From assembly GCA_030248215.1 (NCBI GenBank), contig JASANG010003092.1, positions 248,001-312,000 of the forward strand: a stretch of 64,000 nt of DNA, read 5' to 3'. Made by a program: the position numbers and the translations under genes. A model generated the notes under the pieces. It did not search any database. It was given only the letters and a program-made list of their open reading frames with translations, and was not told the origin of the DNA. Shown here in pieces: positions 3,325 through 63,899 of the stretch (position 1 is the stretch's first letter; every line of letters starts with the position of its first letter). The stretch comes from Enoplolaimus lenunculus. Lineage: Eukaryota.

Positions 3325-4793
3325 TTTGCAAATTGATCGCCAAGCAATATCCAATAGAATATTCTCTGTCTATATAACTTCGAGTTCATTCGTTATGATT
3401 TCAATGTCAATAAGGTGAAACCAATAATTCGGGACAAAAAGTTTAACACAACACGCGATGGATGTTGCTGGTGATCTTAACACCGTTTTATTATATTTTT
3501 AAGCCTAAGCGTAAGAACGAGCTTTTACCTAAGCCTAAGCAAAAATCTAGTTTAAAGTAGTTTACTCTATTCCAGACCCACGAAAAAATGTTCCGCCCAC
3601 GATCTTTACATAAGCCAGCGTTAGGAATGTATATCGACTTGGTAAATGATACGCATTACGAGCGTACCGTTAGAGTCGCCGGTGGGACCACGCGTCTAAG
3701 CACTCTTGTTTTAGGTATAGCTACCTAGTGCCTTTATTCAGTAACCGTTTAACAATCTGGTAATTTTATTTTAAGATGAAACGCGTATGCAGGGGTGTTT
3801 TCGGGTCAACTACCCTTTGAAATTTTGGTCAACGGTTCTTAAAGAACATTTTTCGGTTGGTAACGCACGAAACATTCCGCCGTAAATTTTATACAATGTA
3901 ACCCATCAGGTTCGAAATGCAAGAGGCTACGCCTACGTTTAACGAGACAATATTTTAACTGTTTTTCAATACATGTCAACATCCACTCAAATTGCTGAGT
4001 CCTTCATTGGTCTCGGAACAGGTACTGAACACCATATAGATAACTTTAAGTTTAGTTGAAGAATACTTGGTATTTCAGGGTTTGCAAATTGAAATATTGA
4101 TTAAAAAATGAGTTATGTCACGCGACTCGCCTTGTTATCATTTGGTTCAACCAAACGAATTACACAACTACTGCTCATCACCACAGCGTTGAGTCAACTG
4201 CTGAATGTTACCGATTCGGACTTAGTGCTCGGAAACGTTCTATATCGTCCTGGCAAGCGGTCTGAGCAGCCGCTGAAGACACTGGATATTTCGTGGCGTT
4301 ACTCTCCGATTGAAAATTTCATCAATGAAATAAATCGAAGCGAGTGGAACGATGCTAACATTGCTCAAAAGCGACAAAACAAATATACCGGTACGCCGAA
4401 CTCCAGGTGTAGCTAAGCTTTCATTTCGTAAGGATATATTCAATTAAGGCCAATGCTGACAAATGATGACTGAGAAAAAAATTTTAATTATAAACACAGA
4501 AAATACGCTAACTCCATTTCTAAATAATAACTGTTTGTTCAGCTTTTGTCGTTTTGTTACAAATATACATAATACAACGAATGACCCGTGCTTTGTTGAG
4601 CTGTATGAAGCTTCGAGCATTTGCAGTACAAGTATTCGCAGAAATTGCAAAAGGTGCAACCGTTGGTTGAAAGACACTATAGACTGAAGGAAATAATAAA
4701 TTTATTGAATACAATTCTTTTAAAAAATAAAAACTTTACAACCGAAATTGCAGGAACCTGCGTCCAAAATTTGTACCAAAACCAAGAAGGAAC

Positions 4794-6517: not shown

Positions 6518-9500
6518 CCTTTATGAGGATAAACAGCAAGTGCACGAGGTAGCTTAAATACGCCTGTATACAGGGTTTTCCGTAAAGTTCCGTCCAAATT
6601 TTGAACAATCATATCCGTATGTCGTAGTGAATAGAGTTTTCTGTAATCATTAATGGAAACATTTTCAATTACTTTATAAAATAGGATTTTTAATTATTTT
6701 GTAATTTAACGGTCGTTAAAGTACGTTCCTAACAAGCCAATGGTATTCGTAATTAATTCTGCAATTGTGGGATTATTTCAATATTTTATTGCGATTTTTG
6801 CAAAACGAGTACGACGGCTATGTGTTGCTCGAGTGTCATTGATAAATTTTAATAAATTATTTTTTCAACGTTAAGCCAAGGTCGCAGGCAGCCCGAAAAC
6901 AGGGTCCAGGAGTTACGAACATTTCGTTGTGCGACCAGAAGTTATCGCAAAATTTTTCAGCTGTAACACAAGGAACTACTCTGGAAGTTTATACAGAACG
7001 AAAGTTTGTTTGCTACTCTTCGAAATTTAAATAAAACGTAAACCACATTTCTAACGCACGGGGAACACCCCTGCTATTGCGTTCAAAAACTCTCGACACA
7101 GGAGTTGAAATCTTACCATTTTAACACAAATAAATGCTGACGGGTGGCGCACGCCTCCCCCCAGTTCCCCCTCTCGATCCGCTACTGGAGACACACCTGC
7201 CTATCCAATCTAACGCAATGCCTTCTGTCCCATCTACGTCAAGCTCCTGCAAGGTTTGTGGAAACGCTCCTTCAAAGCGAATGCGCTGAATTTTGTTCGA
7301 GCCAATATCAACATAGTACAGTCGCTTTTCCTAGAAAATTTTAAAAATAATTTAGTGAAAGTACTAAAGTTTTAAACTCTGCGCAAACATGTAGCTTATT
7401 CAATAAATTGCCAGCTTATAATATTTGCGTATGTTGGATTAAAAATGTAATATATATTACAATTGTCCCGGGGCCGGACCCGGCGCCGTAGTTAGAGTGT
7501 ACCGGGGCCGGTGCCATGCGGTATCATGGACGGTGCCAGAAAAACAACGTCCCGTGGTTCAATTTAACCAAAATCCGAACGCAACACAGTAAGTTTGTAC
7601 ATTACCATAGGCAAGATGTTGCGTGACGCGATATACCAAACAACAAATGCATTAATAACACAAACTTCGCAACATTGGAGTATCAACAAAATGTCGCGTA
7701 ACGCGATATGATAATAACGGTACCGTACTCCCAGGTACACGCTTACGTAAAAGGTATTTAACATTTGAAGTTTAGTGTATTTTGATGGCACCGGATAAAA
7801 TCCTGGCCCCGGGTCATCTTTAATATATGTATATAGATATATAAGGTTACTATCCGAAATTTTTAGCCAACCACAATTCTCAAAGGGTGAATCCAAGAAT
7901 TCATTCCGGAAGATATTGAAATTTCAAGCTTCAAATTTTTACTAGCAAGTGCACCGAGCGATAAAAAATTAACCTCAAGCATGCAGTATATGTTTCAAAA
8001 AATTTTTTTCTGTCAGCTTACCCGAACATCAATATCGATCATTGCCGCCTTCTGAAGTCCAGCTCTTAGAAGTTGAAAGTTTTCGCCATCTTCCGAAATG
8101 TTCCATATGCTTTGTCCGTGAGCAAATAAAATTGAAACGGGAGCTGAAAAAAACGATAATTATACGTAAAAAACAACAAAACATGGACATAAGAGCCGTT
8201 AATTAAACTCGAGCTCACAATACACAGATGGAACCAGGAAGCATGGATCAGGATCAATTTCGCCGAAACGTGGAACAAAACTAACATCCTTTATCCTTTC
8301 GTACACAGGATCGATTGGTAAGCGTTTCCAGCGCGTAATACTTATCGTCACAGGCGCATTTATACGATCCCAATGTATTGATGCAAAGTTGACTGCAGAG
8401 TCCAAAATTGTTTACGCATTCATCGAAATCTAAAAATTAAAAATACAACTGTCAAGAATAATATTATAAATGCGTATATATATAGAAATCAGATTTAATT
8501 TTTCGCTAATGAATAAAAACTAATGTGTTTTATACTTATGTAATCAGGTGAACCAGCTGCTTTGAGCTGTGGCATCAGTAAAAATATGCGACAGTTTCGC
8601 AATTAAAACTATTCGAATTATAGCCAAATTTGCAGTAAATGCTAAAACAAAAAATCCGTGATATTAATCATTTCTTCCGCCAATGTTACTTTTAGGGCGT
8701 AGATCACGCATATTCCAAAACCTAAACGTAAACCAATGTGTTTATCCTAAACCTAAGCAAAAAATAGTCTGAAGTTTAACCCTACTCTATTGCATGCAGT
8801 CGCTCAATAAATGGGGCTGCCCTAAAAGTAACATGGACCCTTTCATGTATAGAGTATAATATGCAGCTAATTGCAAACGGTGCACATGCAATTAGTACTC
8901 AGTACATAGTATATAACACAAGTATGTGTAGCACAAAATCTTCACAAGACCTGAGACACCCCTCAGATTTGGGCGTAGTGCCGACGATAGCGTTCCGCAA
9001 ACCCCCCAAATGGAGGTAAGCCGACCCCGGCGGCGCCAATCGTGGAAACTAAAAATTGTATCGCAGACCACTGGAAACTCCGTCGGACCTGTTTCGGAAC
9101 ACTATTCTAACACCAGCGTTGTTCTAGCGTCAAGTTCCTATATTGAATGCGGACGGTAAACGCTGACCAACAGTGAGGATTGCGTTCAAATCCAAGCGAA
9201 ATGAAAAAACAGCAAATTTTCAATTGAAGTATTTCGAACTTTGTTTCGCGTGCTAAATTAACGCAAAAACGCGACAATTAAATATAAACAGAACTTGTAA
9301 ACTTGCTTACCTTCACATTTGGATTTGTCACGACTCAAATTGTACCCGTCACGGCAATGACATTCACCATGTTTATTGCAAATTGGCTCAGACGGATCCA
9401 CTAAAACAAGAAATAGACGTTCACAAAATAGCAATTACACGTCGTAATAAGGAAATGCCAAATAAGTAAAATTAGGTAATTTTTTCAGACAATTTTCATA

Positions 9501-24180: not shown

Positions 24181-27100
24181 TCACGATTGAACTTCATCAC
24201 TATTAACCCCGTTTGGTTCCAGTTTGGCCCTTGCACAATCCAAGCATACTTTATCGTCCGCCCCATCCGGCTCAGATCGGGACCTACACGTTTCCAAGAC
24301 GCATGCAGCAGAGTCTGTCTCATCATCCGTTGGGTCCAACAAACTGATAACTACTGATTTTTGTCTAGTAGCGGTCGTAGCATTGCCACCGGTCCCACCC
24401 TCCAAGGGCAACAACCGTGACCCGTCGGTCGCGTTTCGATCCACCCCCTGCCGTTGTGATTCATTTCCCACTGACGCTCTACCCCCACTCAACGATGTCC
24501 TTGGTCCTGTTGCCGTCCCTGAGGGCAGTAGACTGGGTCGACCAGCAGGAACCGAAAAACTTGCTGTAGACGCCGCCGCAGCTAAATTCAACGCACGAGA
24601 CGCCGAACTACTTACCACACCGCTCGCGTCTGTAATATCTTGACCATCGTCAAGCGTTAACAATAACAAAAATGACAAAAACAAGCTAAACGCCGACCCT
24701 AAATGCCACACATCATGATCATCAAAAAATTCCAAAAATACACACGGTTGGTTTAACGACCGAGACCGGGCGGCAGTCAATTGCCAATTTGATACGCGAA
24801 CATTATAAAAGTATAAACTTGACGCCCAAGAACACAACGATAACACAGAACAAACAATTGGGGCGGCGACGATAACTTCTTTTTCGGCAATTTTTACAGC
24901 AAAATAAAATACAGTAAACAAGAACAAGTTGACAATAAACATATTCAGTAGCGCAGATGGAAACTGATCCGGAGACCGTAACAACGACCACGCTGCGTAC
25001 GCAATGAACGCTAAATTCAACGCAAGTTGAATGGAACCAAACACTGTTCGTACGTGTGTATGTGCTCGCGCGGCATAATTTTTCCAGTACAATATACGCA
25101 TCACTAAAAATCCGACAACACCCGAAATCAGTACAAACGCGACTGCAATTACAATCTGAGCGGCCAAAATTTCTTGACTCACAATTCCGACGACAACAAA
25201 CAGCGCTGCAAGTGCAAATATGGCGTAGAATTTATACAAATGCCCGGCGTTCGGAGGATTACGAATTTGATACAAGTGATATACGCACAACCCGGCAATA
25301 ACGTACATAAACGTTGTATCGAATTGAAAATTTTGTTCCGTCGGACATATATGATACCCAGCCGACAAAATTCCCTCTAACATTAACGCCACGCCCATCG
25401 CGTAAAATACTTCAACGTAGCGCCACGGGAATCGATCAGAATGATACCGAACGATTACAATAAAAAATCCTCCAAAACCAACATAGCCTAAATTTGACCA
25501 AATATTATTGAACGCAACAAACGGACCGAGAGGATTGGCGCAGAAAAAATTATAATAGCACGTATCTTGTGAGCTTTGTTTGCGTGTATAACGAAAAAAT
25601 GTTATTAACAGCTGAATTGCCGGCAGAGTATAAAACACGGCAATAATGAGTAGATTGAACAGAAAAGACCCAGCGGCGAACGTAGGCTTTCGCGATCTTG
25701 TTGTGGCGGGCATTTTTGTCGCAGCCACAGCTACAGCAGTGGCTGACGAAGTCCCGGGTCGGTGACCAGCGATCGTACCCCCAAACGCAGACGCAGTCGC
25801 ATGCAACGCACTGAACGATGGAGATTTCGGGGGTAGATCCCTGTCGGAAGGATATTGTAGTATGCGTCGCATCGGCGGAACGGTACAACATACAGTAACT
25901 GCTGATCCCAGCATAGCAACAATCGCGGCGAACCACGCGAGCGCAAAATACGTTTCGTGCTCGTGTGGTTCGATATGAAACGCGATATATTTCGCAACGG
26001 AGGGCATTGTTAGCGACGGCATGCTAACATTGCCAACAGCTGCAGTCGCCGCTATCGTGACGTCACCGGAAATTGCTGAGCTAGCTGCGGTCACCGCCGT
26101 TGGATTCAGCGATCCAGCAAGCGCTCCAGCAACTGCCGTCACACCATCGATAGGACGATGACGCGCAAAATACTGTTCCCAGCAAGGATCGTCGTAATCC
26201 GCGAGTTCAAACACTACATCGAATTCCGTAAACCCTCTTCGTCTTGGAATACTCAACGACCCACGTGTGGTCATACTTAGATCTAGCGAATGTAGCTCGC
26301 CAGGTATGCCTTGATACTTGTTGGCTGGCTGTTTAGTCGGATTACTAGTCGAAGATCTTGGAGGGCTCGCTTCAGTAGCGGATGCGGCCCCTACTCTAGA
26401 CTGTTGTCCACCTGGCCTGCCAGGTGTTGCCTCACCGTTACTGCACGTAAACGACTGAATTGTGACACGAATGCACGCTGAATCGTTACTAAGAATTTTG
26501 AGCCAAACCCGATTAACTCCTGCAGGAAATACAAAATGAGAATACTGAGGTTCTTCAGGAAGGATAACTGCAGTGCGAATATGTTCGACGCGTAGAATGT
26601 AACGATAAATTTCATCAAATTGAAACTGATATTGAATTGGCTGTGGACTATATGTAGATAGTTCGACTACCAGTTGACCTTGATTTGCACAGATTGTTTT
26701 CGAGAACCTACAAACAACAGCTGTAACGTATGTATTTGTTTTTTACCGCATAAATGCGCAATTTCCACAATTTTTTCACATTTAATTATGAAGCCGTCAT
26801 CATGAGCCGAATTCTCAACTGCGTTTAGCACCTATCTCCAGTTAACAGAGTTACAAACTGGCGAAGTACGGCGTCTTGCTAATCTAAATCTTTGTTCACA
26901 AGTCAAACAAATCAAATTCGAAATAAGTGCAACTTTGAGTCTATGTTTGGATTAATTTCCGCGAAAGTTACACTTAATTTTTGCTTAGGCTTCGACTTAG
27001 AAATATGTTTATTCTTACGCTGAGGCTTTGGCTTAGGCTTTGGAATTTGCTTATACACTGTTACGGCCCTGATCTATACATTGGCCCAACTTTCGAACCC

Positions 27101-38705: not shown

Positions 38706-41342
38706 TTAACCGCAGCATGATACATGAATGGTTTCCTTCGAAATTCCAGGCTGAATATTTCGAGGCGTTGTTGATTGAGCATCCGAATCGGGTTTCGGTA
38801 ACTTTTGCGCTAAAAACCACAATGCAATATTAGTACCAATAACGTACAATATTGTAGCTTAAAACTACCAAGTTTTTAGCGACCAATGTTTAAATGTATT
38901 CAGTGAAATTATACTTGTTATAAATAAATAGTAATTAATAAAAAAAGATTTCCAGCATATGAAATGCGTAATATATTCCAGAAAATAAAACAAAGATTGA
39001 ATTACATTGACTAAACGACAAACATTGATTGACAAGATGCTACACGTGATGTTTCAGCAATTTTTGGGTAATCTGTATTTATTATAGCATAGGAAATTTA
39101 AAAACAGCTCACCGACTTCCAAAAATACATCAGTTACATTCTGACCCGTCTTCGCAGAAGTCTCCAAGAAAATAAGGTCACAGTCGTTTGCATGTAGTTC
39201 TGCTTCCTGTATTGAAATGTAACTGTGAATCATAGGTTTACCATCGCAATTTTGATTTACACAGCAAACTTTCATCACCTGATTCTCAGTTTATCTTCAA
39301 AACAACTATATTTGTACTAAGTAATTGGTACTTTTAAAGACAGCTGCAATACCACTTAATTAGACACCACCTATGACGTTTTAAAAAACTGTTACTTTAC
39401 ATACCAATCTTCACCTCGGGCACTAGAAGTATTATGTTCCTAAGAGAACCCAGAAATCACTTACAATACTAATTATTGTTCATACCTCATATTCTACCAT
39501 TCGTTTGTGCGCAAGATCAACTTTATTCCCAACCAAGGCAATCACAATATCAGGACTTGCTTGTCGGTTCAACTCCTTTATCCATTCTTTTGCACGACGG
39601 TAAGAATTCTGAAACAATACATACAGGTACTTAGAACTAAAGCTCAGTGTATAAAACAGAAATTAAACCTATTCAAATCACCCATACGACACGCTTGGAG
39701 TAAACATATTGCTCACTAACTTGGTGATTTCTTTTCTAAAATCACTTTGATTGCAAGAAACACTTAAAACGTTAATTTAATACAAGTCAAAAACAAGAAC
39801 TACAAAACTGAATATAAGGCGCAACTGAATAATATATACATACTGTATTTGTAATATCGTACACAACCACGGCTGCTTGAGCACCACGGTAGTACATTGG
39901 AGCAAGTGAATTGTACCGCTCTTGTCCAGCAGTGTCCCAAATTTCAAATTTAACTGCTGAACAATCATCAAGGCTAACCGATTGTGTTAAAAACGCAGCT
40001 TAAAAAAGTAAGATCACTCACTGTATAGTTAGTTAAATAGGACGCGAAATCGAGATCCGACCAACAATCGTTGCCAATTTATAGACAACAATTAAATATG
40101 TCTCGGGCCTGTCCCTGGCACTGGTACCGGACGACCACTTAATTTGTTGGGGCCCAATCATGCCAAATTTTAAATGCAATCTTTACACGTCTCTATGCGC
40201 CTCGAAGAACTGAATAAAAATCTGGAGTTTCGGTTATGCGAAACCTTTATATAACGTGTACTTATACAGATATATTCATTTTTATTTTAACTTGCAATAC
40301 CGCATATTAAATAGAAAACACTGTTTCGACTTAACGCTCTATTTCTCGCCAAAATGTGTCAAAATACATTTTTGCAAAAATATCAATTAGCCCACGCTGC
40401 TACTGGCTTCTGGCTCAGCAAGCCTCCTGGCACAGAGAAAAGTTTCATACAATTTGCTGTATGTAAGGCAAGATATAAAACATCGTCTGAACTAATAATT
40501 TCGTCATTTGTTATACCACTGAACTATTTTGAGACAACTATCAGCCTGCTTTACCGTTACTTGATAAAAACATTTCGACATACCTCCAATTGTTGATTCT
40601 TGATTTTCATGAAATTGTCCTTTAACGAATCTCAACACCAAAGAGGATTTGCCCACAGCGGACTCTCCCAGAAGTACGAGCTAAAATAATATAACACAAC
40701 TTGAATATATATCACAGTGCAATGCAGTGCATTGTAACGTATGCTTGCCGACAGCATAAGTGTCGACAATATAACGGACGATAAAAGCATTTGGAGAAGC
40801 GGTCAATGTTTTTCCGTGTATTCTGGGTTCTGAGGATCCGCAGGTTTAAGAATTCGAGCCCAACCTGCGCTTGCTTTCCTAGTTGAATGGTGACAAGGTC
40901 GGAAATTGGGCGCACGATCGTACAATCTAAACTAACATGGTGGCTACGCCATGAACGCAACAGGAACAGTTGCGCTTTGAAGACGGTATGCAATCGCAAA
41001 TAGGATGAATGGAACCGCCGAATAAGAACCTTGTTAAAAATTGAGCACTAAGAATATATGAAAATATTATATAAATGCTTGTCCGTTGAGTACAAAAGCA
41101 GTATATGTAATGCGCGGTAAACGCAGTTAAAGCGGTGGGCTGCACGGTTAATGGCAGGGCGTTCGTTAATAAATCTGTGGCTTGAGAGATTAAATCTGAC
41201 CCGTGCCTGCTTTTTATGCTGCTACTTAAAGATATCTGACGTGACGATCAATGCAACCTTATATATTACAGTAACTAACCTTAAATTGACTGTTGCGTTT
41301 GGCGAAGTCATTTCTATCAACAGCAGTTGGCTGTCTAGTCAT
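38706..41342 (-). CDS. RAB5: Rab5 small GTPase, 211 aa
   Basis: Six exons: 41342-41280, 40680-40584, 39998-39844, 39608-39486, 39206-39113, 38809-38706 (636 nt). Motifs: [69 protein letters not shown]-terminal prenylation motif SCCG*. Confidence 0.96.
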
Positions 41343-42486: not shown

Positions 42487-42559
42487 GGACGCTCCCAGGA
42501 GGTTTCGAACTCGGCGACAGATTATCAGTCCACCGCGCTAGCCACTGAGCCACGCCGCC
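42487..42559 (-). mobile_element. tRNA-derived SINE head (or tRNA pseudogene)
   Basis: GGCGGCG-TGGCTCAGTGG (A box)-CTAGCGCGGTGGACTGATAATCTG-TCGCC-GAGTTCGAAAC (B box). The acceptor stem does not pair, so it is not a functional tRNA. Confidence 0.6.
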
Positions 42560-44173
42560 TCACAATCAACTGCTGAGTTTTTGTTTGCATGCCTTACAAG
42601 AACCTCAACATACACATTTGTTTACCGCTTTTGCATATGAAGACACTACATATGCATCAACGTTTTACCGATGTGCAGCATTAGCATGAGGATTCATTTT
42701 GCCCCGATGCGTCCGCACGTCACAGGGGCAAAAACTGCCGTGATTTACCGGATATAGACTGTTTATAGACGGATTTGACGTAAAACCTGAACTTAACCCC
42801 GATTTTGATAGTTTCGAGTTGTCCCCGAATTTCGTAAAAATACGTTTTGTGAGTCAAGTTAGCGTTAATCTTGCTTGTCTTATGTCTGTCAGAATTTTAT
42901 TTGCTCGAATTGTTTGAAATAGCCCTGCAAAATTTTGTGTTAACACTCCAGAGCGTACTAACCCAAAATAAAATCATATACGATAGCACGTGCCAAGAAC
43001 TCACATTTTCAGATTTTTTAGGCTCAAAGCTGGGCCAAATTACGGATTCCATTCCCAACAGTCTTCTTGTCTATTGTTTCGACAACTTTACACTGACATA
43101 ACACTTACAAACGAAAGCAGCTAGAGTTCAATATATCACACAATAAGTATTTAAAAGGTCCATAACTTTTCAAACCCTCCAATACGTCACATATTACTGG
43201 GATGTCAAACACTACTAGCTAGCTGTTTACCAGCAATAAAGTTCACTGTAGCGTATTTGCTATATCAAAACTGTTCTATCGTGTTTGCGTTAAAATAATA
43301 CCGGAGCAGCGCCCCGTGTTAACGTTAAATATAAAGCATCTGTTCACTTCATTAACAAATGGTGTTGAATCTAGCCACGTTTGGTTCTGCAGCGCAATCC
43401 TAATCATTTGAAACCTGATTTTGTGCGTGTAATTTGCGAAGCTTAAAGGACACTTCGTTTACTGTGGACCGAAAGTATAGCGATACTTAAATTTGTCTGG
43501 ATAGTACTGATGGTTTGATAATACTGCTAGTAGTTCGTGAGTTAATATAACTAGCAATGGTTATACGCGTTTAATTAACTGCCTAGGTAGTTATAGGTCG
43601 CTCTACTGGACGAATTGTTGGCCAGCTGTTCTTTCTGATATATATTTTTTGACCTGGTTACGTGTTTGGTGGTTCTAATTGAAAGATTAATTTTGGATTC
43701 CGCTTTGAAAAAATCGAATTTGCAAAGACTTCAACAACTGTACTAATTCCGTTTCCGCCAGACATCGGTCATCAGACAACAGTGCAAGGCGTGTGATTTT
43801 TTTATACATGTTACGTACGTTATACAAAACAATTGAACCACCATTCGAAAACCTTTTAGTTTTAAGGGGTTCTGTACCTGTATGCATTTTTCGGCTCTCC
43901 TTTGTTAAGTCAAAGTCAAAGTTTCTGCAGCGCAATATACCTTCATCTTTTTGTTTGTACAGTCTGTGCGGAAGAGCGAAATATTTCACATTGTGATACA
44001 GATTATTCATAGTAAATGATATGAAATTTTTATCAACAAACGGTTTGACTGTGCACAATTCGCATCGTGATCTACAAATTTTTGTAATCGCAGCGATAGA
44101 AATTAAAAAAATGTTTTAGAAGCTATGACGATACATCTACTGTTTGTTGTATTATAATTTTGTAATTACCAAC

Positions 44174-47100
44174 ATGACAAAACTACAGTCCCTTATGTTG
44201 CGGTCGACTGACGTCATTAGTTTTCATAGAAGGACAGTCGTTCAGTATGTTCAAGGACAGTCCCCAGCACCAAAAATCCGAGAGTATTTCTATTATATTG
44301 ATCACCACGGCCAGGTATGCGGGCTATTAAAAATTACCTTACACTACGGATGTACCGGGGCCAGAAAATATACTACATATCAATTTGTTATTTTATATAC
44401 CTTTGCGTAACCATGTGCCTGGGAGTACGATACCATTTTTATGATATCGCGTCACGCGACATTTTGTTGATACTCCCATGTTGTGAAGTTAGTTTTATGC
44501 ATTTGTTACCTGTCATATCGCTTCAAGCAACATTTTGCCTATAGTAATTTAAGCTGGGTTCCGATCATTAAATTGTGCCACGGAAGATTGTTTGTCCGGT
44601 ACGGTATGACCTCGGGACATCTCTAGCTAACACGATTTGTGGAGCGGTTTGTGTGAATTTTTCTGTTTTGAAATGACTACTGCAGCAGTACTTGTACTTC
44701 AACAAGAACAGAACGGAATTGATTATGTTGAATGCTGTTTGTGATCACGATAGTCCTCGCTCCTGAGCGATACGTTAATTGTTTCAGCTATTTTTGGATG
44801 ATGCAAAAATGAAAAATTTCACTTCGTGTTTCAAAGGTATATGTTTTAATGTTTAGCGAGAACAAGAACTATATTAAACTTTGCATCGCAACTTTATGTG
44901 TATTGTTATCTATAACTTCCTCGCATATATCTATGTTTTTTGCATGCTTCAATCGTTATACGTAAAGTGTTACCGTGTATATATTATTTTATACTGCTGA
45001 TAGCTAACAATATTTTTGTTTCAGAAAAAGACTTCCTTGTGTTCTTTTTTCGGCGTCTGCGATATAATAATTTTGTTAGATATAGAAACGCGTTTCCTTT
45101 CGTGAGCTTGTGTGGTCGCGAAAGAAATTTCATTCGCTGCGATGATCTGCCAATAGTTTTTACGCATTTGCTCACTGCCGACGAAGTTCACAGGTTTAAA
45201 GAAGGTTATAACTAGAGCAACTTTTTTCAATTTTATATTAAAGCGTTCAAAATTGTTTTGCTACATTCTTATGGAGCATCCACGTTATAACGCTTGCGCA
45301 GATGCAAAAAATGTCCAGTTTACCCCTACAAACTGGCTTCTCCACAGCTTGAAAATTTCTGCCGGGGGGCGTTTCCTGGGGGCCCCCAGGAGTTTCCTGG
45401 GGGGCAGCTAATTTTGCTGGGGGGCAGTTTTCCTGGGGGCCCCCAGATGATCTGGGGGTCCTGGGGGCAGGTCAAAATTTTGCAAGCCGACTTTTTGGAC
45501 CGTTTTTTATTCTAGATCGTGTTTCCAACTCAACTGAAGATTACTCATCGCTCAACATGACAAAAATTCCCCGTAAACGCTAATAACAATAATTTTAACT
45601 AATATTACTGACAACATTACCAGAAGTTGAAAGAAGCACAATTATATAAAATAGAGATAATCTATAATTGAAACTGTGATTAACTTATATTTTATATATT
45701 GGTCACAGCTTCAGTTTATCATAAGGATCAGGCGGGTTGAACTTGTTGCTGCAAGGTACTTTCGAATGCTGTATGCCCTGAAACGGTCTTTATATAATTG
45801 TGCTTTTTTTCAGTTCATTATTGAATTGTACTAGTTACTACCGGTATTTGTAACCCTATTAAACAATTATGAGTACTCAGCGTAATATAAAATCACATTT
45901 TGCCGAATGTCCGCCTCAAAAAAAGTCCAGGTCTATGTTTTAACATTGAAAATTTTTGGCTTAGAAAAGTCCTGGGGGCCCCCAGCAAAAAAATTTGCTG
46001 GGGGGCGGCCGAAAATTCGCCGGAGGGCCTTTCCTGGGGGCGGCAAAATTTTCGCCGGGGGGAAAATGAAAATTTCGAAAAGTGCTGGGGCCCCCCGCCC
46101 CCCCGCTGTGGAGAAGCCAGACAAAGAGAGTACGTTTCACAATTGTAGCTAGAGTGAGTGTCTGGACATAAATAATGGTGTGCTTAGATAGTGGTGTTTG
46201 TCCGCAGTCTTTTGTAAGGGACTCGGACAAAACACATGGCGTTTTTTGGGCTGTATGGACATTTTAAGGTATGTGCAGTAATGCAGATATTGTTATAGCG
46301 TTTTATTTGAAATGTGTGAAGTTTGCGTATATACACGCACACAGTTTTGTTTAAATAGTCCCTTCGGAGGGACTCAGTAAATTTGTACACTGTGCATATG
46401 GCATAGGGACAAAAACATGTTATTGCCGTAAGGTTAAGACAAATATAAGCTTCCAAACTGGCTATGTTTATTGTCGGTACTCTGTAAGAATAAGTTATTC
46501 GCGTAAGACATACTGTCTTAGCCCACTCTGTTCACACAACGTTGATCCTCGGAGGGACACGACAATTTTTTACTTTTTCGCGAGCGTTATAACGTGGATG
46601 CTCCATTAATAATATAATGTGTTTTAACTGTATCTTCTAATAACGTACGTATTTTACTACTAAGTAAATTTTCCGCTGCAATAACTCCTCATTTTCTAAC
46701 TACCTACTTTGTATTTCATGCGGATATTATGTTGTCAGGAAATGTTTGACAGTATTTTTTATTTTTAGGATCTCGAAAATTTGATCACAAAAGCAGATTC
46801 AATGTGGACAGTTCTCATAGCGCGACACATTACCTAGTCTATGGCAATGCTGACCCAAGACTGTGCGTACCTTTTCGTCCTGAACTTGTGTCTATGTCCG
46901 CCGTGAACGGACGAGTATATCATGCCGGACCTGCGTTTCCCGGGTTGATGAATTTTGCTGAACGCGAGCCCGAAAAGAAAATAACACCTGGTGAGAATTC
47001 TTGTGCTGCAGACATAGAAGACGCCGAGCATGAAAGTACCATTGGGTTAGATACTGACATACCACCACTTGACTATGTGGGCCTGGTTAGCTCAGCTCTT

Positions 47101-47295
47101 GCTCTTAAATTGGCTCGTAATTTTGAATTTGAACACAGTGCCGCGGAATCTGATTGTTCCGCCAATGCCAAATATCCAGTACCATCGCACATGTTGTGGG
47201 ATGGGGTAAAGTATCATCTAAAGCATACAGTGGGACCAGTGATAGCTCAAATGCACAAGTTTTGCGGGTATGAGCCTAAAGCGTGGAAGGATTGA
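44174..47295 (+). CDS. C8orf82: UPF0598 / C8orf82 homolog, 298 aa
   Basis: Four exons: 44174-44314, 44788-44836, 45025-45204, 46769-47295 (897 nt). Motifs: YVQGQSPAPKIREYFYYIDHHGQLFLDDAKMKNFTSCFK, FPFVSLCGRERNFIRCDDLPIVFTHLL, NGRVYH, VGLVSSALAL, PSHMLW. Confidence 0.92.
45272..46605. mobile_element. PIF/Harbinger-like non-autonomous element in C8orf82 intron 3
   Basis: Perfect 23-bp TIR TGGAGCATCCACGTTATAACGCT / AGCGTTATAACGTGGATGCTCCA; 3-bp TSD TTA. Confidence 0.8.
45333..46120. mobile_element. Nested MITE with 5-bp TSD and CCTGGGGGCCCCC subterminal repeats
   Basis: Perfect 16-bp TIR CTGGCTTCTCCACAGC / GCTGTGGAGAAGCCAG; both flanks read acaaa. Confidence 0.8.
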
Positions 47296-47449: not shown

Positions 47450-47455
47450 AATAAA
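47450..47455 (+). promoter_or_regulatory. Probable poly(A) signal of C8orf82
   Basis: AATAAA 155 nt after the stop codon, followed by a T-rich tract. Confidence 0.45.
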
Positions 47456-48330
47456 TTTTTAGCTTTGTCTATCGATTGTGTATGGTAACGAGCGTTGTCT
47501 GAGATACAACTTGTCTGCAATAATGAGGCTTTGTGTTGTGTGGGACAGTTCTATTTCAACTCCTAAACAATTAGTGTTCATATTCTCTGTATTAGGTTGA
47601 ACCTGTACATTTTCTTTTTTTAGCTGCAGGTAATCGGCGTTGCAAAATTTTAATTTGCTGTATGCACTGGACATTCGCGGTGAAGTAGGGGGCATTAACC
47701 GGGATTTATCTAGTTGGGAGTTGCAGAATTTTCAATAAATCGTCAGTTGCGCTAGCCAGTGATTAGTTACGCCTACAAATAACACATAGTCAAAAGCAAC
47801 CGTATAAATAATTAGGGATGTGCCGATAGCAAAATTTTTGCCGACACCTCTTCTTATTTTGATATTTTGCCGAAACATAAATCAAATATATAAAGACATG
47901 ATCGAGAGGACCGGGTACCTTTAATTCGTACTAATAACATTTTAACGTAAAATTACCGGGGGAGAAAACTTTGTTGGGGAGGCCGATCAGGGGGAAAATC
48001 TTAGGTGGGACATGGCTTTTGGTAAGTTGAGGGGCCCACCTCCCCGTACCACATCCCCCAGCAAATTGGTTTCTCATGTGGGCTGTATGGGACTGCCATG
48101 TAAACCTAATCTTCGTAGTCTGTCTGGAATTTTTTGTGTCGAGAAAACTGCTAAAACTACGCTACAGTAGTTTTTCATTTGAATTAATTAATTTGGCTCG
48201 GTTGGTCACGTATTTATTGTTATTTTATAATTTTGACACACTCAAAATATGTAAAAATAGTAGAATACAACTGTAGGTCCTATAAATAGAATTGCATTTC
48301 AGATTTTTTTCCTATTTATTGTGTTTTATA

Positions 48331-49052
48331 ATGTCGCGTGATAGTCACGTTGACAATAATTTATTAATCGATCGTTTAAAATCTGTTTTGCTAGATTTGG
48401 GTAGCAATGGTGCGTCCAGTGTTCAGGAATTGCAAGCTACATTTGAGTAAGTATAAGCTGAATCTAGAACGAGGATGGCTATAGGGTCCGTTCTGGATTG
48501 ATGTTTGCAGGGATTTGCACGTAACCGAACGTTCCTTGAATTTATCGATGCTTTTGTGTGCAAAGTCCATGGTCATGAGGCAGTTAATGCAGCCTATGTA
48601 AGTTACGTTGTGATACGGAATAAGAGGGATTTTTCAAACCAGTAAAAAACTGTTGAAGAACGTGAAAACACAATCACTTAGACTGTAAAATAGTTCTGAA
48701 TAAAGCTTGGCACAAAAATGACCTAGTGACTGACACAATCTGTGCAAATACAGTGTGTATTAGTTAGACAATGATAAAGTTTAGTAGTCGCCTGTTTGTT
48801 GCAAGATATTTTATTTGTTCAGTTTATTTTCGGATTTGTTCAACTGCGAGCTTTATAGCGCAATGCATTCTGTATTATTTTAGAGCGAGATATTCCTGTC
48901 GCCTAAGTTTGCCCGAAGAAACGTGTGATCTAGGCGATTTCATCATTCATCATCCAGATATTGGTTATGTAACTAATTCAGGTCGTATTGTCTCTAACAA
49001 TGTGCAAATTTTGTCGGATGTCTTAGAATCACAGCTCGCGTATTCGACAAAG
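48331..49052 (+). other. Putative extended LOTUS (OST-HTH) domain encoded by the first two exons of the aminopeptidase gene
   Basis: MSRDSHVDNNLLIDRLKSVLLDLGSNGASSVQELQATFE|ARYSCRLSLPEETCDLGDFIIHHPDIGYVTNSGRIVSNNVQILSDVLESQLAYSTK. The hydrophobic pattern matches a LOTUS winged helix (L..VL...NG....LQ..F.......L.DF....P.....SG.I) followed by an eLOTUS-type C-terminal helix ending in Q. Confidence 0.7.
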
Positions 49053-52000
49053 GTGTGTTTCTTTGTTTTTGGTTTTACGGCATAACATTAAATATCCGGA
49101 TCTTTGTGAACTGAAAATCACGTATGTTTTTTCATGCATTCATTGAGAATTTCGGGTTTTGTATTCATAATTCATATTATGGCATTTTCTGTCGAGAAAT
49201 TATCAATTTTAAATGTTGACATCCAGCAGTTATATATTGCTGTATAAAAAATTTGGAAAAAGCTATCTCAGGTTTAAAATTACCAACATTTTCATTATTT
49301 ATTTGCTTTTGAAATTTTAGCCAATGTATTCACCGATAGTGGTTCAACCATTTCCACGAAATTCACATCCTGCCCTTCCTGATGAAGAATTTGTGATTAT
49401 CGGTAAATGTCAGGTTTTTCGGTTTGGTTTTATTTTTATCGCGGGTTTGTGACAATGCGACAAATTGACTGTGTCAATAAAAAATAACAGACATAAGAAA
49501 AAATTGTGGATGAGAATAGGTTGAGTTATTGGACGAAAGGCTGTGATTGAGATGAAAAGTACTTTAGTTGAAATTTTGGTTTGATATACACATGCGTAGA
49601 AACTCTGAATTCATCAAGTTTGATTAAATGGGAGCTTTTATCGTTGTCATCATCGTCTGACTGTTTTGAATTTCTTGCTTCCCCATATTGAAATCAGTTT
49701 AGTTGATTAATGGAACAGCTTGGAGTTTTATTTTTTGACAATTCCAAGTTTGCATACAACTGTGTTTGTTTCTTACCTGAAATCGTAGTATTAATTTAGA
49801 TATTGTTTTAATTTTTGCTAGTGGAACCAGGTTAAATTTGTTAAATAATATCGGTAAAAGTTTTTTGTTTGGGTTTGATTGTTAGAAATGTTTGTAAGGA
49901 AATAGCAACGTTTTTTGTTTGTTCATTTTAATATGTTTTATTAGGTAAATACAAAGACTTAGCTGCCGTGCAGTTTTCAAGCGTTCTAGCACCACGAATA
50001 GGAAAATGTGTTACTGAAGAGTTGTGGTTAATTGCTCTGAAACAGGTAATGTTATTTAATTTTGAAGTGGATAACTTTAAGTTGTAGGCTACCACATGTT
50101 CGATGTTGTGTCTAACAGATGTATTATTAGTTTATTTATTGTGATTTTTTGCCGGCAATCACTTGTTTTCTTCCCTTCTCACAAAATGCCCCCCCTGCAT
50201 GGCGTCGTGATTATTAACATAGGTTTAAACTTAGGCGTTAGGGTTAGGTCGAAACTTTGGCTTACGAAAGTAATAAACTGTAATGTGGAACAACTTTTGC
50301 GTTCTATCATATGAATACTTGTGGGGTGTGGGTGGGTGGAGTAAATCGTTTCTGTTATATTATTTTCTAGTAGTCAACGGGACGCTAAATGTTTCTATTT
50401 AGGTGAGCATGCTGTGTGCTTATCGGTTTTTATTCAATTAATATCACGAGTATATTATGTAATTGTGTTTTGATAAAACAAATTGTTATTTGTTCTGTAT
50501 TTTCCAGTTAGATCCACATTCCAAATCCAAAGAACGCGCGGACAAAGCATCAACGGCTTCAGCGAATATACTGAGAGCTGCACGCTCTGCCATTGTACCA
50601 TTGTACATTAATCGATGCAGTGTTATTACACTCCCAGCGCAGTGCACACGGCAAAATGCACCTAGTGGTTCAGTGGCTTTGTTTCGGGTAAGTGGCCCTA
50701 TCCTGTGGTCGTTTTTGTTGCTGCTGTTAAAATAAAATGCTAAAACGAACTGTAGTATGGAATGGATTAGCCAAGTATTTGTGCAACAGTATACTATTGG
50801 TTTTCGTTATATGTTGCAGCTTTTCAAATAAATTGAGTTAGCCAGCGTACCTGTTGTTGTGCTGCAATATTCTGGATAGCGTTCAAATATTATGCGAATT
50901 TAAAGCGTTTTTCACAAATACTGAGTAAGCTGTGTAACGAATTGTCTTTGGAAAGATCATTAGCTTGAACTGCTGCGAATCTGCCTTTAATTTTGCTAGG
51001 AATTAAAACAGTGTAATTTAAATAACTGGAACATTTAGTTGTTGGAAATATGCGTTTTTGGCTCAAATCTCAGTGAAATGTTGAAATACGTAGCAGGTTC
51101 GCCGCAGTTAGATTGTTAGCGTATTAAGCTAGAAAAGATTGTACTCTGATTTTAAAAACTCATTTTTTGAATCTTTTTAAATAAAATTCTTTACCATAAA
51201 AACTGTTTGATATGATATTTAGAGTCTTCGTTCCGTTGGCATTGGAGGCAGTTCAGCCACTGCGGCAACGCTATTGATTTTTGCTCCAAAAATTGATGTT
51301 ATGCCGTTATTGGCTGCTATTGCCCGATGTTTTCCGAAATTTAATCTTCGAAGTGGTCTGAAGCCATCGCCTGTAATTAATGTGGAATTCACTTTTGCTA
51401 TATCGTCTCGTGAGGACTTACAGCCAAATAGCGAGGAACACTTGAACGGTTAGTTTTTTCGCGGTTTAAATTTCAGCCTTCGTGTGTCAGATGATTTACA
51501 TGGATTGTTGTATTGTTTTAGAATATAGTGGTACTGTAATGCATTTTACTTTTTGCCGCACAATACGAGATATGGGGATTTTTTGGGATCTTGGTTTTAT
51601 TTTATATATCAATATTGGTTTATTTTCTCAGTCACATTGACTTGGTCTTTAATATCTGGTTTTTGCATGAAGTTTGATGGTAAAAATAAACAAAATAACC
51701 AACAATACTGGTCACATGTAAAATAGTAAAAAAATTCTCCATTTCGCTTCCATTTGACAGTTGGTTACAGGTTGTAATACAAACCCAGTACTATGTCAAT
51801 ATAGAGGCTTGGACAGTTTTTCTCGATTATTCTAATTTTCTATACTTGGATTATGTTTGTAAAGTAAATTGCTTTCAGATACTGGGTTTCTGGCTTCGGA
51901 TGGTAGTTTCTCCAATTTTGAGGTGGAATGGCTTCAACAATTTGTCGATTGTATTCGAGGTACTGCTCGTATTGTTGATTGCCCTGCGAATATAATGACA

Positions 52001-55000
52001 ACTACGCGATTTGCTAGTGAAGCTCAAGCTGTTGCGAGGACACTTCCATCTGTACAATGCTCGGTTGTATCAGGTACAAGCCAGATTATGGCGGGATGTT
52101 AAAACTTAAAATATACGCAAATCGGATCCATATAGAAACGCTTTACTTTAATTTTTATACGGTTTTTGCCGGAAGTAAAATATGAGCGGTGTATATGTGG
52201 CCGCGGCTTGGTACCTACTGTGGCATTGCGCTTGTCTGATTGCGAACTTCGATATCACAAGCTTAATTCGTAACTTGTGACGTGCTGATATTTTTCGTCC
52301 AAGACTATGTGTATGGGTTGACTTTGTATGGGTTTAATCAAAATTCTAATATTACCGATTCATGGCTTCGAAATTATTGTTTTATGTTCTTTTTAGGAGA
52401 AGAGCTAAAAAGTCAAGGGTTCAATGGTCTTTATAGCGTTGGACAAGCAAGTCTGTGCCCACCCGCGCTTGTGACGTTAAGCTATCGGCCGGAAGGTGCC
52501 ACAAAGACAGTAGCGTGGATAGGCAAGGGCATTGTATACGATACTGGTGGTATGCAAATGAAAACCAAAACAACTATGCCTGGTAAGGACAAAAATAGTT
52601 TGGCTAGTGTATTTTCAATAAAGGATTAAAGTCTTGGTAACGGGCGTAGGCAAAAAATGTTGGGGGCATGACATTGTTTTATGCATACGTAATAGAGTTG
52701 TAAAGTAAATGTTTGAGTTTAGTTCCTTATGTTATACACCCGTGGTCTTGGTTAACTTAACATAAAGCAGGCGTTGTTGTTAAATTAAAACTACTGGTCT
52801 CTTTATGTGTCCTGGTGTTCTTGTTGACTTTTGTAACTTTGTTTTATATCGTTTTATTTTTGAGGTATGAAGAAAGATTGTGGTGGGGCCGCCGCAATTC
52901 TGTATGCATTTCGTGCTGCCGTATTAGCGGGGTTCAAAGAAAATTTGCATGCAGTTTTGTGTCTTGCCGAAAACAACGTTGGAGCACGTGCTAGCCGACC
53001 TGATGATGTGATTGTTATGAAAAGTGGTAAAAGTGTTGAAATTAATAATACAGGTATGTGAGATTACTTTTCGTAATTAAGGGCTTCGTCCAATCTTGTG
53101 TTAGTTCCTATATTTGCTAACATAACTTTGCATTATGATTAAGCACTTGCTCGAAACTGTTGAATTATATTATAGGTTCGTATAATAGTGTTTTTGCGTG
53201 ACTAAACTCTTGATATAACAACGCGTGGAGGATTTCGTTGAGGAAAGCAAAGGCGTGCAGCGGTCAGATTTTCGTGTCACTTTTGGGACATTGGGTAAAA
53301 TTGGCTAAAAAAAATTTACACTAATTGCAAAATTTTGGGTGTCTTACGTAAGGCATCAGGACTGTTAAAACAGGTGGTAAATAGTGTCCAGAAGCCTCTA
53401 ACCTAGAACTTTCTTTATTACTAGTACAGATGCTGAAGGTCGTCTTGTTCTCGGCGACGGAGTGTTTTACGCAGCAAAAACACTGAACGCAGATGTTATA
53501 TTTGATATGGCAACACTGACAGGGGCTCAACGATCAGCAACTGGTGATTATCATGGAGCGGTTGTGACAAATAGGTTAGAAAGGAGAAAGGTGGTTCGCG
53601 ACTTGGGGTACACTAGACTTACCGTGCGGCGCGAGCGGCACTACAAGAAGCGAAAAAAGTTTTATTTATAAATTGATTTGTAGAGCCGTCCGACACCGTT
53701 CGGAAGCATAGCGCCAGTATTAATGTAGTCTTGCAGGCGAGTAAGTATAAATCATGCCAACCTCAGTTTTATTGTACTTTTTTATTTAGAAGATGGCTTG
53801 TGTTAGTTGTACCTGCACCTAATCGAATTCAATTTCTTAAATTTTGTTACTACTATAAGCAATTGATTGTTATTTCCACTATTATTTTAGCGATTATTGG
53901 GAAAGTCTTGTGTGTGATGCAGGAATCGCCAGCGGTGATCTCGTTCATCCATTACCCTACTGTCCGGAACTGCATTATCCGGAACTTGCTTGCAGTCCCA
54001 TTGCCGATATGAAAAACTCGTTGGTCGGCCGGGCGTCTACTGCAGCGTCATCTGTGGCAGCGTTGTTCATTCATGCTCAGGTAAAAATTGTGTAAGATAC
54101 GCACGAGCTGAAACTAAGGTTGTGTAAAAAACTGAACCCCTGAGTTTTTGGCTGGGTTTAATAAAATTTGAAAAAACCTAACTATGGTTACAAAGGTCTG
54201 TTGTGCATTTTTTAGTTTACAAGCAAAATTTCAAGCAGTAACGATTATCTCATTATATTATAATCCGCAGCCCAAATGTTCAATTTTTTTCTTTGACTTA
54301 AATATTTTTTAGTTTGTTATAACTGCTCCTGGAAAACTGGAAATGTGAAAGTCGTTTTCATTTTCGCGTCTTGTACACTCAGAACTAATTATAATTTGAA
54401 TAATTGCATACGGTTTGAGAATTTATGTACCTGGTGTTATGAGTGATAGTTGTTCCAGTAACATTTCCACCTGATTTGCAATGCTGCAACCTACTACGTG
54501 TCTCTTTATTTCGGTGCGAGGCAGTTGTATTACCAGGTACTGATATGTTAGTCCGTGGCAAGTGTCCATGTAAGGTACAAACATTTAAAATGGGCGTTAA
54601 AAGTTTTGTCCTAAAGATAGACCTATAGCTGAGATTGTTGGCGGACTATACTATCACCTGATGTGAAAATTTACGCAAAAGTAGGCGAAGCCATGTGTTA
54701 AATCTATCGGCTGATAATTCGCTGCTGCTTAACATACAAGGCTATCATTTGCTGGTGATAGATGCTACACACATTTTAGAATGCCGGCACTGGATGCTGT
54801 ATTTTTATATTAGGGCCTTGTTCGTACCGAAAGGTGCGCTGAGTAGGTGTTCATTAGGTATCTCTTAATTTCAGTTAAGCTTTGATGCTAAAATTCCATG
54901 GATACACGTAGATATGGCGCAGCCGGTCCAGTCTGGTGAAAGAGCAACTGGTTATGGCGTTGCCTTACTATGTGTATTATTCGCGCGATGGACTAAATTG

Positions 55001-55036
55001 AACTTTCCAGTATACAGCAAGCCAACAAACGCGTGA
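48331..55036 (+). CDS. NPEPL1: M17 aminopeptidase-like 1 (NPEPL1) with N-terminal LOTUS-like extension, about 646 aa
   Basis: Twelve phase-consistent exons: 48331-48446, 48884-49052, 49321-49402, 49945-50045, 50508-50687, 51223-51448, 51879-52073, 52397-52582, 52865-53053, 53430-53574, 53891-54080, 54875-55036 (1941 nt). Motifs: VTEELW, ARIVDCPANIM, GKGIVYDTGGMQMK, MPGMKKDCGG, NNTDAEGRLVL, DMATLTGAQ, LPYCPELH, GERATGYGVALL. M17 metal ligands are intact. Exons 3-12 are firm; joining exons 1-2 to them is inferred from splice phase. Confidence 0.92.
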
Positions 55037-63420: not shown

Positions 63421-63899
63421 CAGAGTGCGACCGGATATCCGGCTCCGGTTCCTGCAGAAAATCGACATCCGACTCCGGATCCGGTATTTTAACTTGCCAG
63501 ATGTTTTTAAAAACTTCAAAAGATTGAAACCAACATTTGTATTTATGCCAACTTTTTCTATCGTAAAATGTATTTTCTGTCGTACAATGTAAATGTTTGC
63601 ATGTACCCGTGTACGCTCACCAGATTTATTGGGTTTTAATAACGCTGGACTACCTGATAAAGATGACCAGTGTTACTTGATTGGCGTAAAAGTATATTTA
63701 CTGTTATTCGTAATTCTAAGTCTAAACTTCACCCTAAAAATATGTCTATGTCTAAGCTTAAGCCTTAGTATATGTAAATAATAGCCTTAATCCAAACCAT
63801 GGATGGACGGTCTCGGTCAATTTTTGGTCATCACCGAAACAACCAAAATTTTATTAGACTAGCGGCTCAGGCATTTTTTTGGTATCTGGTCGCACCCTG
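63421..63899. mobile_element. hAT-like MITE
   Basis: Termini CAGAGTGCGACCGGATA ... TATCTGGTCGCACCCTG; 8-bp TSD atatatat/atatatct. Confidence 0.75.

What the first reader, a model, noticed from the sequence alone, without database searches (positions are those of the whole stretch)
48331..55036. Extended LOTUS (OST-HTH) domain fused to an M17 aminopeptidase (LOTUS-NPEPL1)
Seen: two small exons (48331-48446 ending GA|GTAAGT; 48884-49052, TTTTAG|A ... AAG|GTGTGT) splice in phase, with no stop, onto the exon where NPEPL1 homology starts. They add about 95 aa: NLLIDRLKSVLLDLGSNGASSVQELQATFEARYSCRLSLPEETCDLGDFIIHHPDIGYVTNSGRIVSNNVQILSDVLESQ. This tracks the LOTUS pattern as I recall it from TDRD7 LOTUS1 (DLVSKMLRAVLQSHKNG..LPRLQGEY....TLEAYLRSVP...SGEI...IAQLVARQ). 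It also includes the extra C-terminal helix ending in Q that defines extended LOTUS (Oskar HLLDMVLNQ). Established: eLOTUS domains of Oskar/TDRD5/TDRD7 bind and stimulate the Vasa DEAD-box helicase in germ granules; M17 peptidases are typically hexamers; known NPEPL1 proteins have no LOTUS domain that I am aware of. The catalytic ligands (GKG, YDTGG, MKKD, NTDAEGR) are intact here. Inference: a hexamer displaying six Vasa-binding domains could be a multivalent germ-granule or small-RNA scaffold with peptidase activity. Caveat: the Gly of the typical 'lGf' turn is missing, so the domain is divergent.
Basis: partly seen in the sequence, partly recalled or inferred. Interest (0 to 1): 0.88.

Follow-up and report, generated by a model that had tools for sequence, protein, structure and literature searches.

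The report
Aminopeptidase with added LOTUS-like head
An animal gene for the peptide-trimming enzyme NPEPL1 has two extra in-frame exons ahead of its usual start, which likely add a small winged-helix domain, possibly a worn LOTUS domain of the kind that docks on germline RNA helicases; neither the splice join nor the LOTUS identity could be confirmed.

Summary
The anatomy is real. A 12-exon, all GT-AG model (48331-55036) gives one open 646-aa protein, and residues 97-646 are an NPEPL1-type M17 aminopeptidase with all seven catalytic positions intact. Met97, three bases into exon 3, lines up with the start of ordinary NPEPL1. Exons 1-2 score as coding only in the spliced frame and have normal splice sites, so they are probably real. 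The join to exon 3 has no RNA support; a separate small gene ahead of an independently started NPEPL1 remains possible.

The LOTUS call is weak. Neither exon matches Pfam or PDB. The 73-residue core aligns end to end, almost without gaps, to a mostly bacterial LOTUS profile (1 of 150 shuffles as good). But its score of 10.6 is below distant true LOTUS repeats (18-57) and is reached by 4 of 70 unrelated winged helices. The defining Ghxph motif is absent. No animal LOTUS profile, joined-domain fold or Vasa test could be run.

Best reading: an active peptidase hexamer with an acidic, probably winged-helix, possibly degenerate eLOTUS docking domain. No such fusion was found among 120 listed relatives or in the paper searches. 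Host phylum unknown; 'nematode' is unverified.

The parts
48297..48302 (+). Acceptor-like site (TTTCAG) 28 nt before the first ATG: a 5'UTR intron end or a trans-splice site
   Evidence: Acceptor score 9.0, among the best in the region
48331..48446 (+). Exon 1, ATG plus 38 codons; inferred helices 1 and 2 of a winged helix
   Evidence: Coding score in spliced frame only; ESM Atlas feature hits include ArgR-type (0.91) and DeoR-type (0.89) HTH clusters, weak
48884..49052 (+). Exon 2, 56 codons; inferred helix 3, wing and C-terminal helix (about residues 79-92)
   Evidence: Coding score; splice scores 9.1 and 6.7; single-sequence AlphaFold2 helix at pLDDT about 53
49321..49402 (+). Exon 3; ATG at 49324 (Met97) is the ancestral NPEPL1 start position
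   Evidence: 26 residues from Met97 to the conserved Gly123; 30 of 46 relatives have 24-26 residues before that column
49945..50045 (+). Exon 4, NPEPL1 N-terminal domain
50508..50687 (+). Exon 5, NPEPL1 N-terminal domain
51223..51448 (+). Exon 6, NPEPL1 N-terminal domain
51879..52073 (+). Exon 7, linker and start of the M17 catalytic domain
   Evidence: PF00883 positions 4-40, E 0.089
52397..52582 (+). Exon 8, M17 domain; K400, D405, K412
   Evidence: PF00883 E 3.8e-18
52865..53053 (+). Exon 9, M17 domain; D423
   Evidence: PF00883 E 3.4e-19
53430..53574 (+). Exon 10, M17 domain; D482, E484, R486
   Evidence: PF00883 E 1.1e-17
53891..54080 (+). Exon 11, M17 domain
   Evidence: PF00883 E 6.8e-6
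54875..55036 (+). Exon 12, end of the M17 domain and stop codon
   Evidence: PF00883 E 0.016

Best explanation
This is an NPEPL1-type M17 aminopeptidase gene with intact catalytic residues, and two upstream in-frame exons likely splice onto it to add an acidic domain of about 85 residues that is predicted to be a winged helix, possibly a degenerate extended-LOTUS domain, which would act as a protein-docking tag. Shown: the open reading, the ancestral start at Met97 and the conserved active site. Inferred: the two exons came from the 5' end of a LOTUS-type gene and were joined by an in-phase donor to the acceptor three bases before the old start codon. M17 enzymes form hexamers with a buried catalytic core and solvent-exposed N-terminal domains (PMC7948507), so up to six heads would be displayed. 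The head has a net charge near -6, so protein binding (a Vasa-type DEAD-box helicase if it is eLOTUS) is more likely than direct RNA binding. A short isoform starting at Met97 may coexist.
For: Open 646-aa model with GT-AG introns. Coding signal in the spliced frame only. Top-ranked parse, with 1 of 60 simulated regions as good. Donor 2 scores 6.7 against a leave-one-out range of 2.9-10.7 for 15 real donors, and is followed by the T-rich run seen after several other donors of this gene. End-to-end, nearly gap-free global alignment of residues 8-80 to a 420-domain LOTUS profile: score 10.55, reached by 1 of 150 shuffles and 0 of 40 windows of the peptidase part. LOTUS scored best of four winged-helix profiles (DeoR 8.2, ArgR 1.3, FUR 1.0; raw scores on different profiles are only roughly comparable). 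Atlas feature hits to HTH clusters for exon 1. C-terminal helix predicted at 79-92, where eLOTUS has its defining extra helix (PMC5458760). LOTUS domains share only 10-16% identity across species (PMC8331183), so low scores are expected. The Drosophila orthologue Grsm is an active leucyl aminopeptidase (PMC6388916).
Against: No spliced reads seen. No Pfam hit for either exon at E up to 10, apart from a weak DUF5669 match for exon 2; no relevant PDB sequence hit. Local profile tests are null: 248 of 2000 shuffles as good by HMMER and 9 of 100 by hhalign. The global test was a second look, with boundaries chosen by me after the local tests failed. 4 of 70 non-LOTUS winged helices score as high on the LOTUS profile, while 26 of 26 distant LOTUS repeats score 18-57 (these were themselves picked by profile). 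The Ghxph motif, present in 349 of 420 control domains, is absent from the helix 2-3 insert. The low-confidence model of exon 2 puts a strand where helix 3 should be. The ancestral ATG is retained, and ATTAAA (49087) and TATAAA (49243) lie in intron 2. No relative with the same head was found.
Confidence: 0.4

Rival explanations
1. The fusion is real but the head is another or generic winged helix (for example Egalitarian-type or transcription-factor-like), or an unrelated small fold, and has nothing to do with Vasa; it would target the peptidase to some other partner.
For: The global score lies within the upper tail of non-LOTUS winged helices (4 of 70). DeoR also beats shuffles (1 of 60). 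Atlas family hits are ArgR and DeoR, not LOTUS. The Ghxph motif is missing. Egl domains are LOTUS-like winged helices of a separate family (PMC13186709).
Against: The DeoR alignment needs two 8-residue gaps whereas LOTUS aligns almost without gaps, so the long helix 2-3 insert typical of LOTUS is present in length. The domain sits at the extreme N-terminus with a trailing helix, as N-terminal eLOTUS does.
Confidence: 0.28
2. Two genes: exons 1-2 are a stand-alone small protein of about 105 aa (reading 10 codons past 49052 to the stop at 49085), and NPEPL1 starts at its ancestral Met97 after trans-splicing or an untranslated first exon at the 49320 acceptor.
For: Met97 is the ancestral start and lies three bases after the acceptor. 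ATTAAA begins right after the read-through stop. 3 of 4 gene starts in the window have an acceptor-like site within 60 nt upstream of the ATG, against 65 of 366 random 70-nt stretches, as expected with spliced-leader trans-splicing or 5'UTR introns. In C. elegans, trans-splice sites can also be used in cis by an upstream exon (PMC11347140 passages).
Against: The donor at 49053 scores near the median of real donors, the 30 nt after it are T-rich like several intron starts, and its phase matches exon 3 (1 in 3 by chance). The read-through tail is a low-complexity hydrophobic run. Spliced leaders are not shown for this organism.
Confidence: 0.17
3. Exons 1-2 are chance open frames or untranslated exons; the protein is an ordinary NPEPL1 starting at Met97 and the LOTUS likeness is pattern-seeing.
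For: No homologue of either exon peptide was found. Each exon is only at about the 5% level against stop-free background. 5 of 58 real regions give an equally good parse. Earlier scan notes record similar unconfirmed LOTUS-like calls on small exons.
Against: Two independent exons each carry frame-specific coding signal, good splice sites and matching phases. The joined peptide also beats 149 of 150 shuffles on a winged-helix profile. The host is so divergent (SID-1 at 35-41% to its best full-coverage relatives; long NPEPL1 branch) that missing homologues are expected.
Confidence: 0.12

Closest known systems
NPEPL1 / Drosophila granny smith / C. elegans LAP-1 (PDB 2hb6); M17 family, Pfam PF00883 + PF18295
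   Same: About 44-48% identity over 510-550 columns to full-length animal NPEPL1; falls in the 40-row, mostly animal clade of a quick tree; catalytic K400, D405, K412, D423, D482, E484, R486 present (roles recalled from bovine LAP).
   Different: 96 extra N-terminal residues, an insertion in the N-terminal domain and a very long branch. Extensions in listed relatives are internal duplications or unrelated peptides of up to 60 aa, several looking like targeting peptides by eye; none resembles this head (best E 2.1).
[quoted passage not shown]
   Same: N-terminal position, length, gap-free fit to the LOTUS layout and a predicted trailing helix.
   Different: No Ghxph motif, profile scores at generic winged-helix level, net charge near -6 (median about 0 in the control set). 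The partner is a peptidase, not a Tudor, SGNH, nuclease or ubiquitin-system domain as listed in PMC2848206.
Egalitarian ED1-ED3 winged-helix domains
   Same: LOTUS-like winged helices at the N-terminus of an enzyme-fold protein (PMC13186709).
   Different: Not compared directly here; Egl has three such domains and an exonuclease-homology module that binds RNA.
Moonlighting M17 enzymes (E. coli PepA in DNA recombination; inactive Drosophila S-Lap proteins as sperm structural proteins)
   Same: M17 hexamers used as scaffolds (PMC7948507, PMC6388916).
   Different: Those have no added winged-helix domain that I know of (recalled); S-Laps are inactive whereas this one keeps its active site.

Membership tests
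M17 aminopeptidase, NPEPL1 group | Peptidase_M17 catalytic domain | tested here: met
   PF00883 on six exon frames, E down to 3.4e-19
M17 aminopeptidase, NPEPL1 group | Metal ligands and catalytic Lys/Arg | tested here: met
   K400, D405, K412, D423, D482, E484, R486; roles recalled
M17 aminopeptidase, NPEPL1 group | Closest relatives are NPEPL1 over both domains | tested here: met
M17 aminopeptidase, NPEPL1 group | Active homohexamer | not testable with these tools
   Inferred from the family (PMC7948507, PMC6388916)
LOTUS / OST-HTH (PF12872) | Significant match to a LOTUS profile | tested here: inconclusive
   Pfam on single exons: none. Own mostly bacterial profile: local null, global 1 of 150 shuffles but not above other winged helices. 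The 40-row version finds TDRD7 only at E 0.6 and lists no Oskar, TDRD5 or MARF1 chain at E up to 5; bacterial and eukaryotic forms are distinct families.
LOTUS / OST-HTH (PF12872) | Ghxph motif in the insert between helices 2 and 3 (PMC2848206) | tested here: not met
   Absent from the insert; the only match in residues 1-97 is at 27, before helix 2. Present in 349 of 420 control domains.
LOTUS / OST-HTH (PF12872) | Winged helix-turn-helix fold (three helices, two-strand wing) | tested here: inconclusive
   Only single exons could be folded: exon 1 as one long helix, exon 2 at pLDDT 53; fold searches gave nothing clear. Weak HTH signal from the Atlas.
extended LOTUS (eLOTUS) | Extra C-terminal helix (alpha 5) | tested here: inconclusive
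   Helix predicted at residues 79-92 at low confidence; packing on the core not modelled
extended LOTUS (eLOTUS) | Vasa-contact residues: small residue at Oskar A162, Leu/Ile at L228 (PMC5458760) | not testable with these tools
No animal eLOTUS sequence was available to align.
extended LOTUS (eLOTUS) | Binds and stimulates Vasa | not testable with these tools
   No Vasa sequence of this organism is held (no genome)
Egalitarian-type winged helix | Match to Egl ED1-3 | not tested
   No Egl sequences fetched; Pfam scan of single exons gave no such family

The most novel reading that the evidence does not exclude
A lineage-specific fusion in which a degenerate extended-LOTUS domain puts an active hexameric aminopeptidase into germ granules: six Vasa-binding heads on one rigid core would make a folded, multivalent condensate scaffold that also trims peptides.
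Probability: 0.2. Interest if true: 0.8.

Novelty: new variant of a known kind. Interest (0 to 1): 0.52.

Why it matters
LOTUS domains are known in fusion with Tudor, RNA-binding, nuclease, lipid-binding and ubiquitin-system domains (PMC2848206). I found no paper holding both 'LOTUS domain' and 'aminopeptidase' (0 hits), none holding 'leucine aminopeptidase', 'M17' and 'germ granule' (0 hits), and nothing relevant by title or abstract start; subscription papers are not covered. If the fusion and Vasa binding hold, it would bring proteolysis into germ-granule biology and give a natural test of whether multivalency on a rigid hexamer can stand in for disordered scaffolds. If only the fusion holds, it is still an NPEPL1 with an added folded head not seen among 120 listed relatives, and a clean example of exon capture ahead of an ancestral start codon. 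If the two-gene reading holds, the interest shifts to a small orphan winged-helix protein.

Full report
Observation. The window is intron-rich animal DNA, and no genome is held for it. After correcting my own boundary slips, a 12-exon model from ATG 48331 to the stop at 55036 gives 646 codons with no internal stop and GT-AG at all 11 introns. Six later exon frames match Pfam Peptidase_M17. A search with exon 9 returned 151 proteins among 372 candidates, 120 listed, led by NPEPL1. The model is about 44-48% identical to full-length animal NPEPL1 over 510-550 columns. K400, D405, K412, D423, D482, E484 and R486 are present; their roles as metal ligands and catalytic residues are recalled from bovine LAP.

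Where NPEPL1 starts. In an alignment with 46 relatives, 30 have 24-26 residues before a conserved glycine. Here Met97 lies 26 residues before it, three bases after the acceptor at 49320. So the extension was added in front of an intact ancestral start. None of the 120 relatives resembles residues 1-97 (best E 2.1). Among the 61 whose alignment reaches the N-terminus, the extensions are internal duplications or unrelated peptides of up to 60 aa.

Are exons 1-2 real? A three-periodic model trained on exons 3-12 and the SID-1 frame scores them 6.5 and 5.6 bits in the spliced frame and -20 to -28 in the other frames; true exons, left out in turn, score -1.3 to 23.8. Against stop-free background, 21 of 481 and 11 of 223 windows do as well. 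The new donors score 4.1 and 6.7 (15 real donors: 2.9-10.7) and the acceptors 9.1 and 7.9 (15 real acceptors: 0.4-9.7). An unguided chain search over 47460-49320 ranks these exons first, with (26.3) or without (25.6) a 42-nt extra exon; 1 of 60 simulated regions and 5 of 58 real regions reach the top score, and the real regions may hold unannotated exons. I put real coding exons at about 85% and the join to exon 3 at about 80% of that. No reads could be examined.

The two-gene rival. Without the donor at 49053, exon 2 reads on 10 codons to a stop at 49085, with ATTAAA at 49087. Three of four gene starts in the window (this gene, DUF4505, Rab5; not SID-1; starts set by eye) have an acceptor-like site within 60 nt before the ATG, against 65 of 366 random 70-nt stretches. 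That fits spliced-leader trans-splicing or 5'UTR introns. In C. elegans a trans-splice site can also be used in cis (PMC11347140, passages). The host phylum is unknown: the quick tree leaves a long branch inside the mostly animal clade and SID-1 has no close relative, so 'nematode' is unverified.

Is the head LOTUS? Single exons gave no LOTUS hit in Pfam, the PDB, the protein database or metagenomes. I built LOTUS profiles from genome hits to PF12872 and from 150 library proteins. Local tests are null: 248 of 2000 shuffles by HMMER and 9 of 100 by hhalign, although the short hit falls on helix 3 in the expected register. The 40-row profile gives the head -1.5 bits and TDRD7 LOTUS 13 bits, and lists no Oskar, TDRD5 or MARF1 chain at E up to 5, so it is a weak probe for animal domains; the defining paper treats bacterial and eukaryotic forms as separate families (PMC2848206, parts 1-2 of 4 read). 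As a second look, a global alignment of residues 8-80 ran end to end with two one-residue gaps and scored 10.55, reached by 1 of 150 shuffles and 0 of 40 windows from the peptidase part. Controls limit this: 4 of 70 ArgR, DeoR and FUR domains score as high on the same profile, and 26 of 26 distant LOTUS repeats, with their own protein left out, score 18-57. Against other winged-helix profiles the head scored 8.2 on DeoR (1 of 60 shuffles, two long gaps), 1.3 on ArgR and 1.0 on FUR. The Atlas gave exon 1 feature hits at 0.91 to unnamed clusters and to one with 14% ArgR members, and at 0.89 to a DeoR-like cluster, with recognition under the tool's mark. The Ghxph motif that the defining paper names is absent from the insert, while 349 of 420 controls have it. 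A single-sequence model of exon 2 has a helix at 79-92 but a strand where helix 3 is expected, at pLDDT 53; exon 1 alone folds as one helix. In sum, a winged helix is weakly supported, and LOTUS is the best-fitting layout but is not established. I put LOTUS ancestry at about even odds, given real exons.

How it likely works. M17 enzymes are hexamers with a buried catalytic core and exposed N-terminal domains, and some act as scaffolds (PMC7948507, passages). The fly orthologue Grsm is active, while its S-Lap paralogues are inactive structural proteins (PMC6388916, passages). A head on each subunit would be displayed six times (inferred). eLOTUS domains bind and stimulate Vasa through helices 2 and 5 (PMC5458760, passages), LOTUS domains also bind G-rich RNA (PMC7498356, passages), and multivalent LOTUS proteins organise P granules (PMC8331183, passages). 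This head is acidic, with net charge -6 to -7 against a control median near 0, and lacks the motif proposed to contact RNA, so I favour protein docking over RNA binding. Vasa as the partner is conjecture. Egalitarian domains show that LOTUS-like winged helices outside the family exist (PMC13186709, passages). No supplements were read; the eLOTUS alignment in the supplement of PMC5458760 would bear on the residue mapping.

Novelty. Searches for 'LOTUS domain' with 'aminopeptidase' and for 'leucine aminopeptidase', 'M17' and 'germ granule' gave 0 papers; listings for NPEPL1 (30 of 196 seen), for LAP-1 with P granule and for OST-HTH architectures with peptidase showed nothing relevant. The scan's earlier notes hold no such fusion but do hold several other LOTUS-like calls, some unconfirmed. 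Verdict: a probably real, apparently undescribed N-terminal addition to NPEPL1; its LOTUS identity and germ-granule role are open. New variant of a known kind; interest 0.52; the boldest reading has probability 0.2 and would deserve 0.8.

Noticed in passing
window 24184-26742 and 27168-27821, minus strand: SID-1 family dsRNA/sterol channel gene with most of its coding region in one 853-codon frame (PF13965, E 2e-100), very divergent from all relatives.
   Followed up: partly
window 38705-41342, minus strand: Six-exon Rab5-like GTPase gene (name from sequence likeness, recalled; Ras family hit), open model, head to head with the DUF4505 gene.
   Followed up: partly
window 44174-47295, plus strand: DUF4505 gene directly upstream, with AATAAA at 47450, about 880 nt before the finding's first ATG. 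Exon boundaries not fully resolved.
   Followed up: partly
window 45271-46606: Nested inverted repeats (42-nt outer arms, 88% complementary) with G/C-run units inside a DUF4505 intron, resembling a MITE.
   Followed up: no
window about 42497-42560, minus strand: Short tRNA-like stretch with A-box and B-box-like motifs, seen by eye; possibly a SINE head.
   Followed up: no
window about 31700-38000 minus, 6700-8560 minus, 4113-4406 plus, 63424-63483 plus: Exon-like scores without a Pfam hit in the frames scanned; probably further unannotated genes.
   Followed up: no
P0026, P0033, P0034, P0075: Several arthropod NPEPL1 records carry 44-60 extra N-terminal residues that look by eye like mitochondrial targeting peptides, so an upstream in-frame exon slot may recur in this family.
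   Followed up: no
L001-L046: NPEPL1-like M17 enzymes occur in Planctomycetota and Myxococcota genomes.
   Followed up: no
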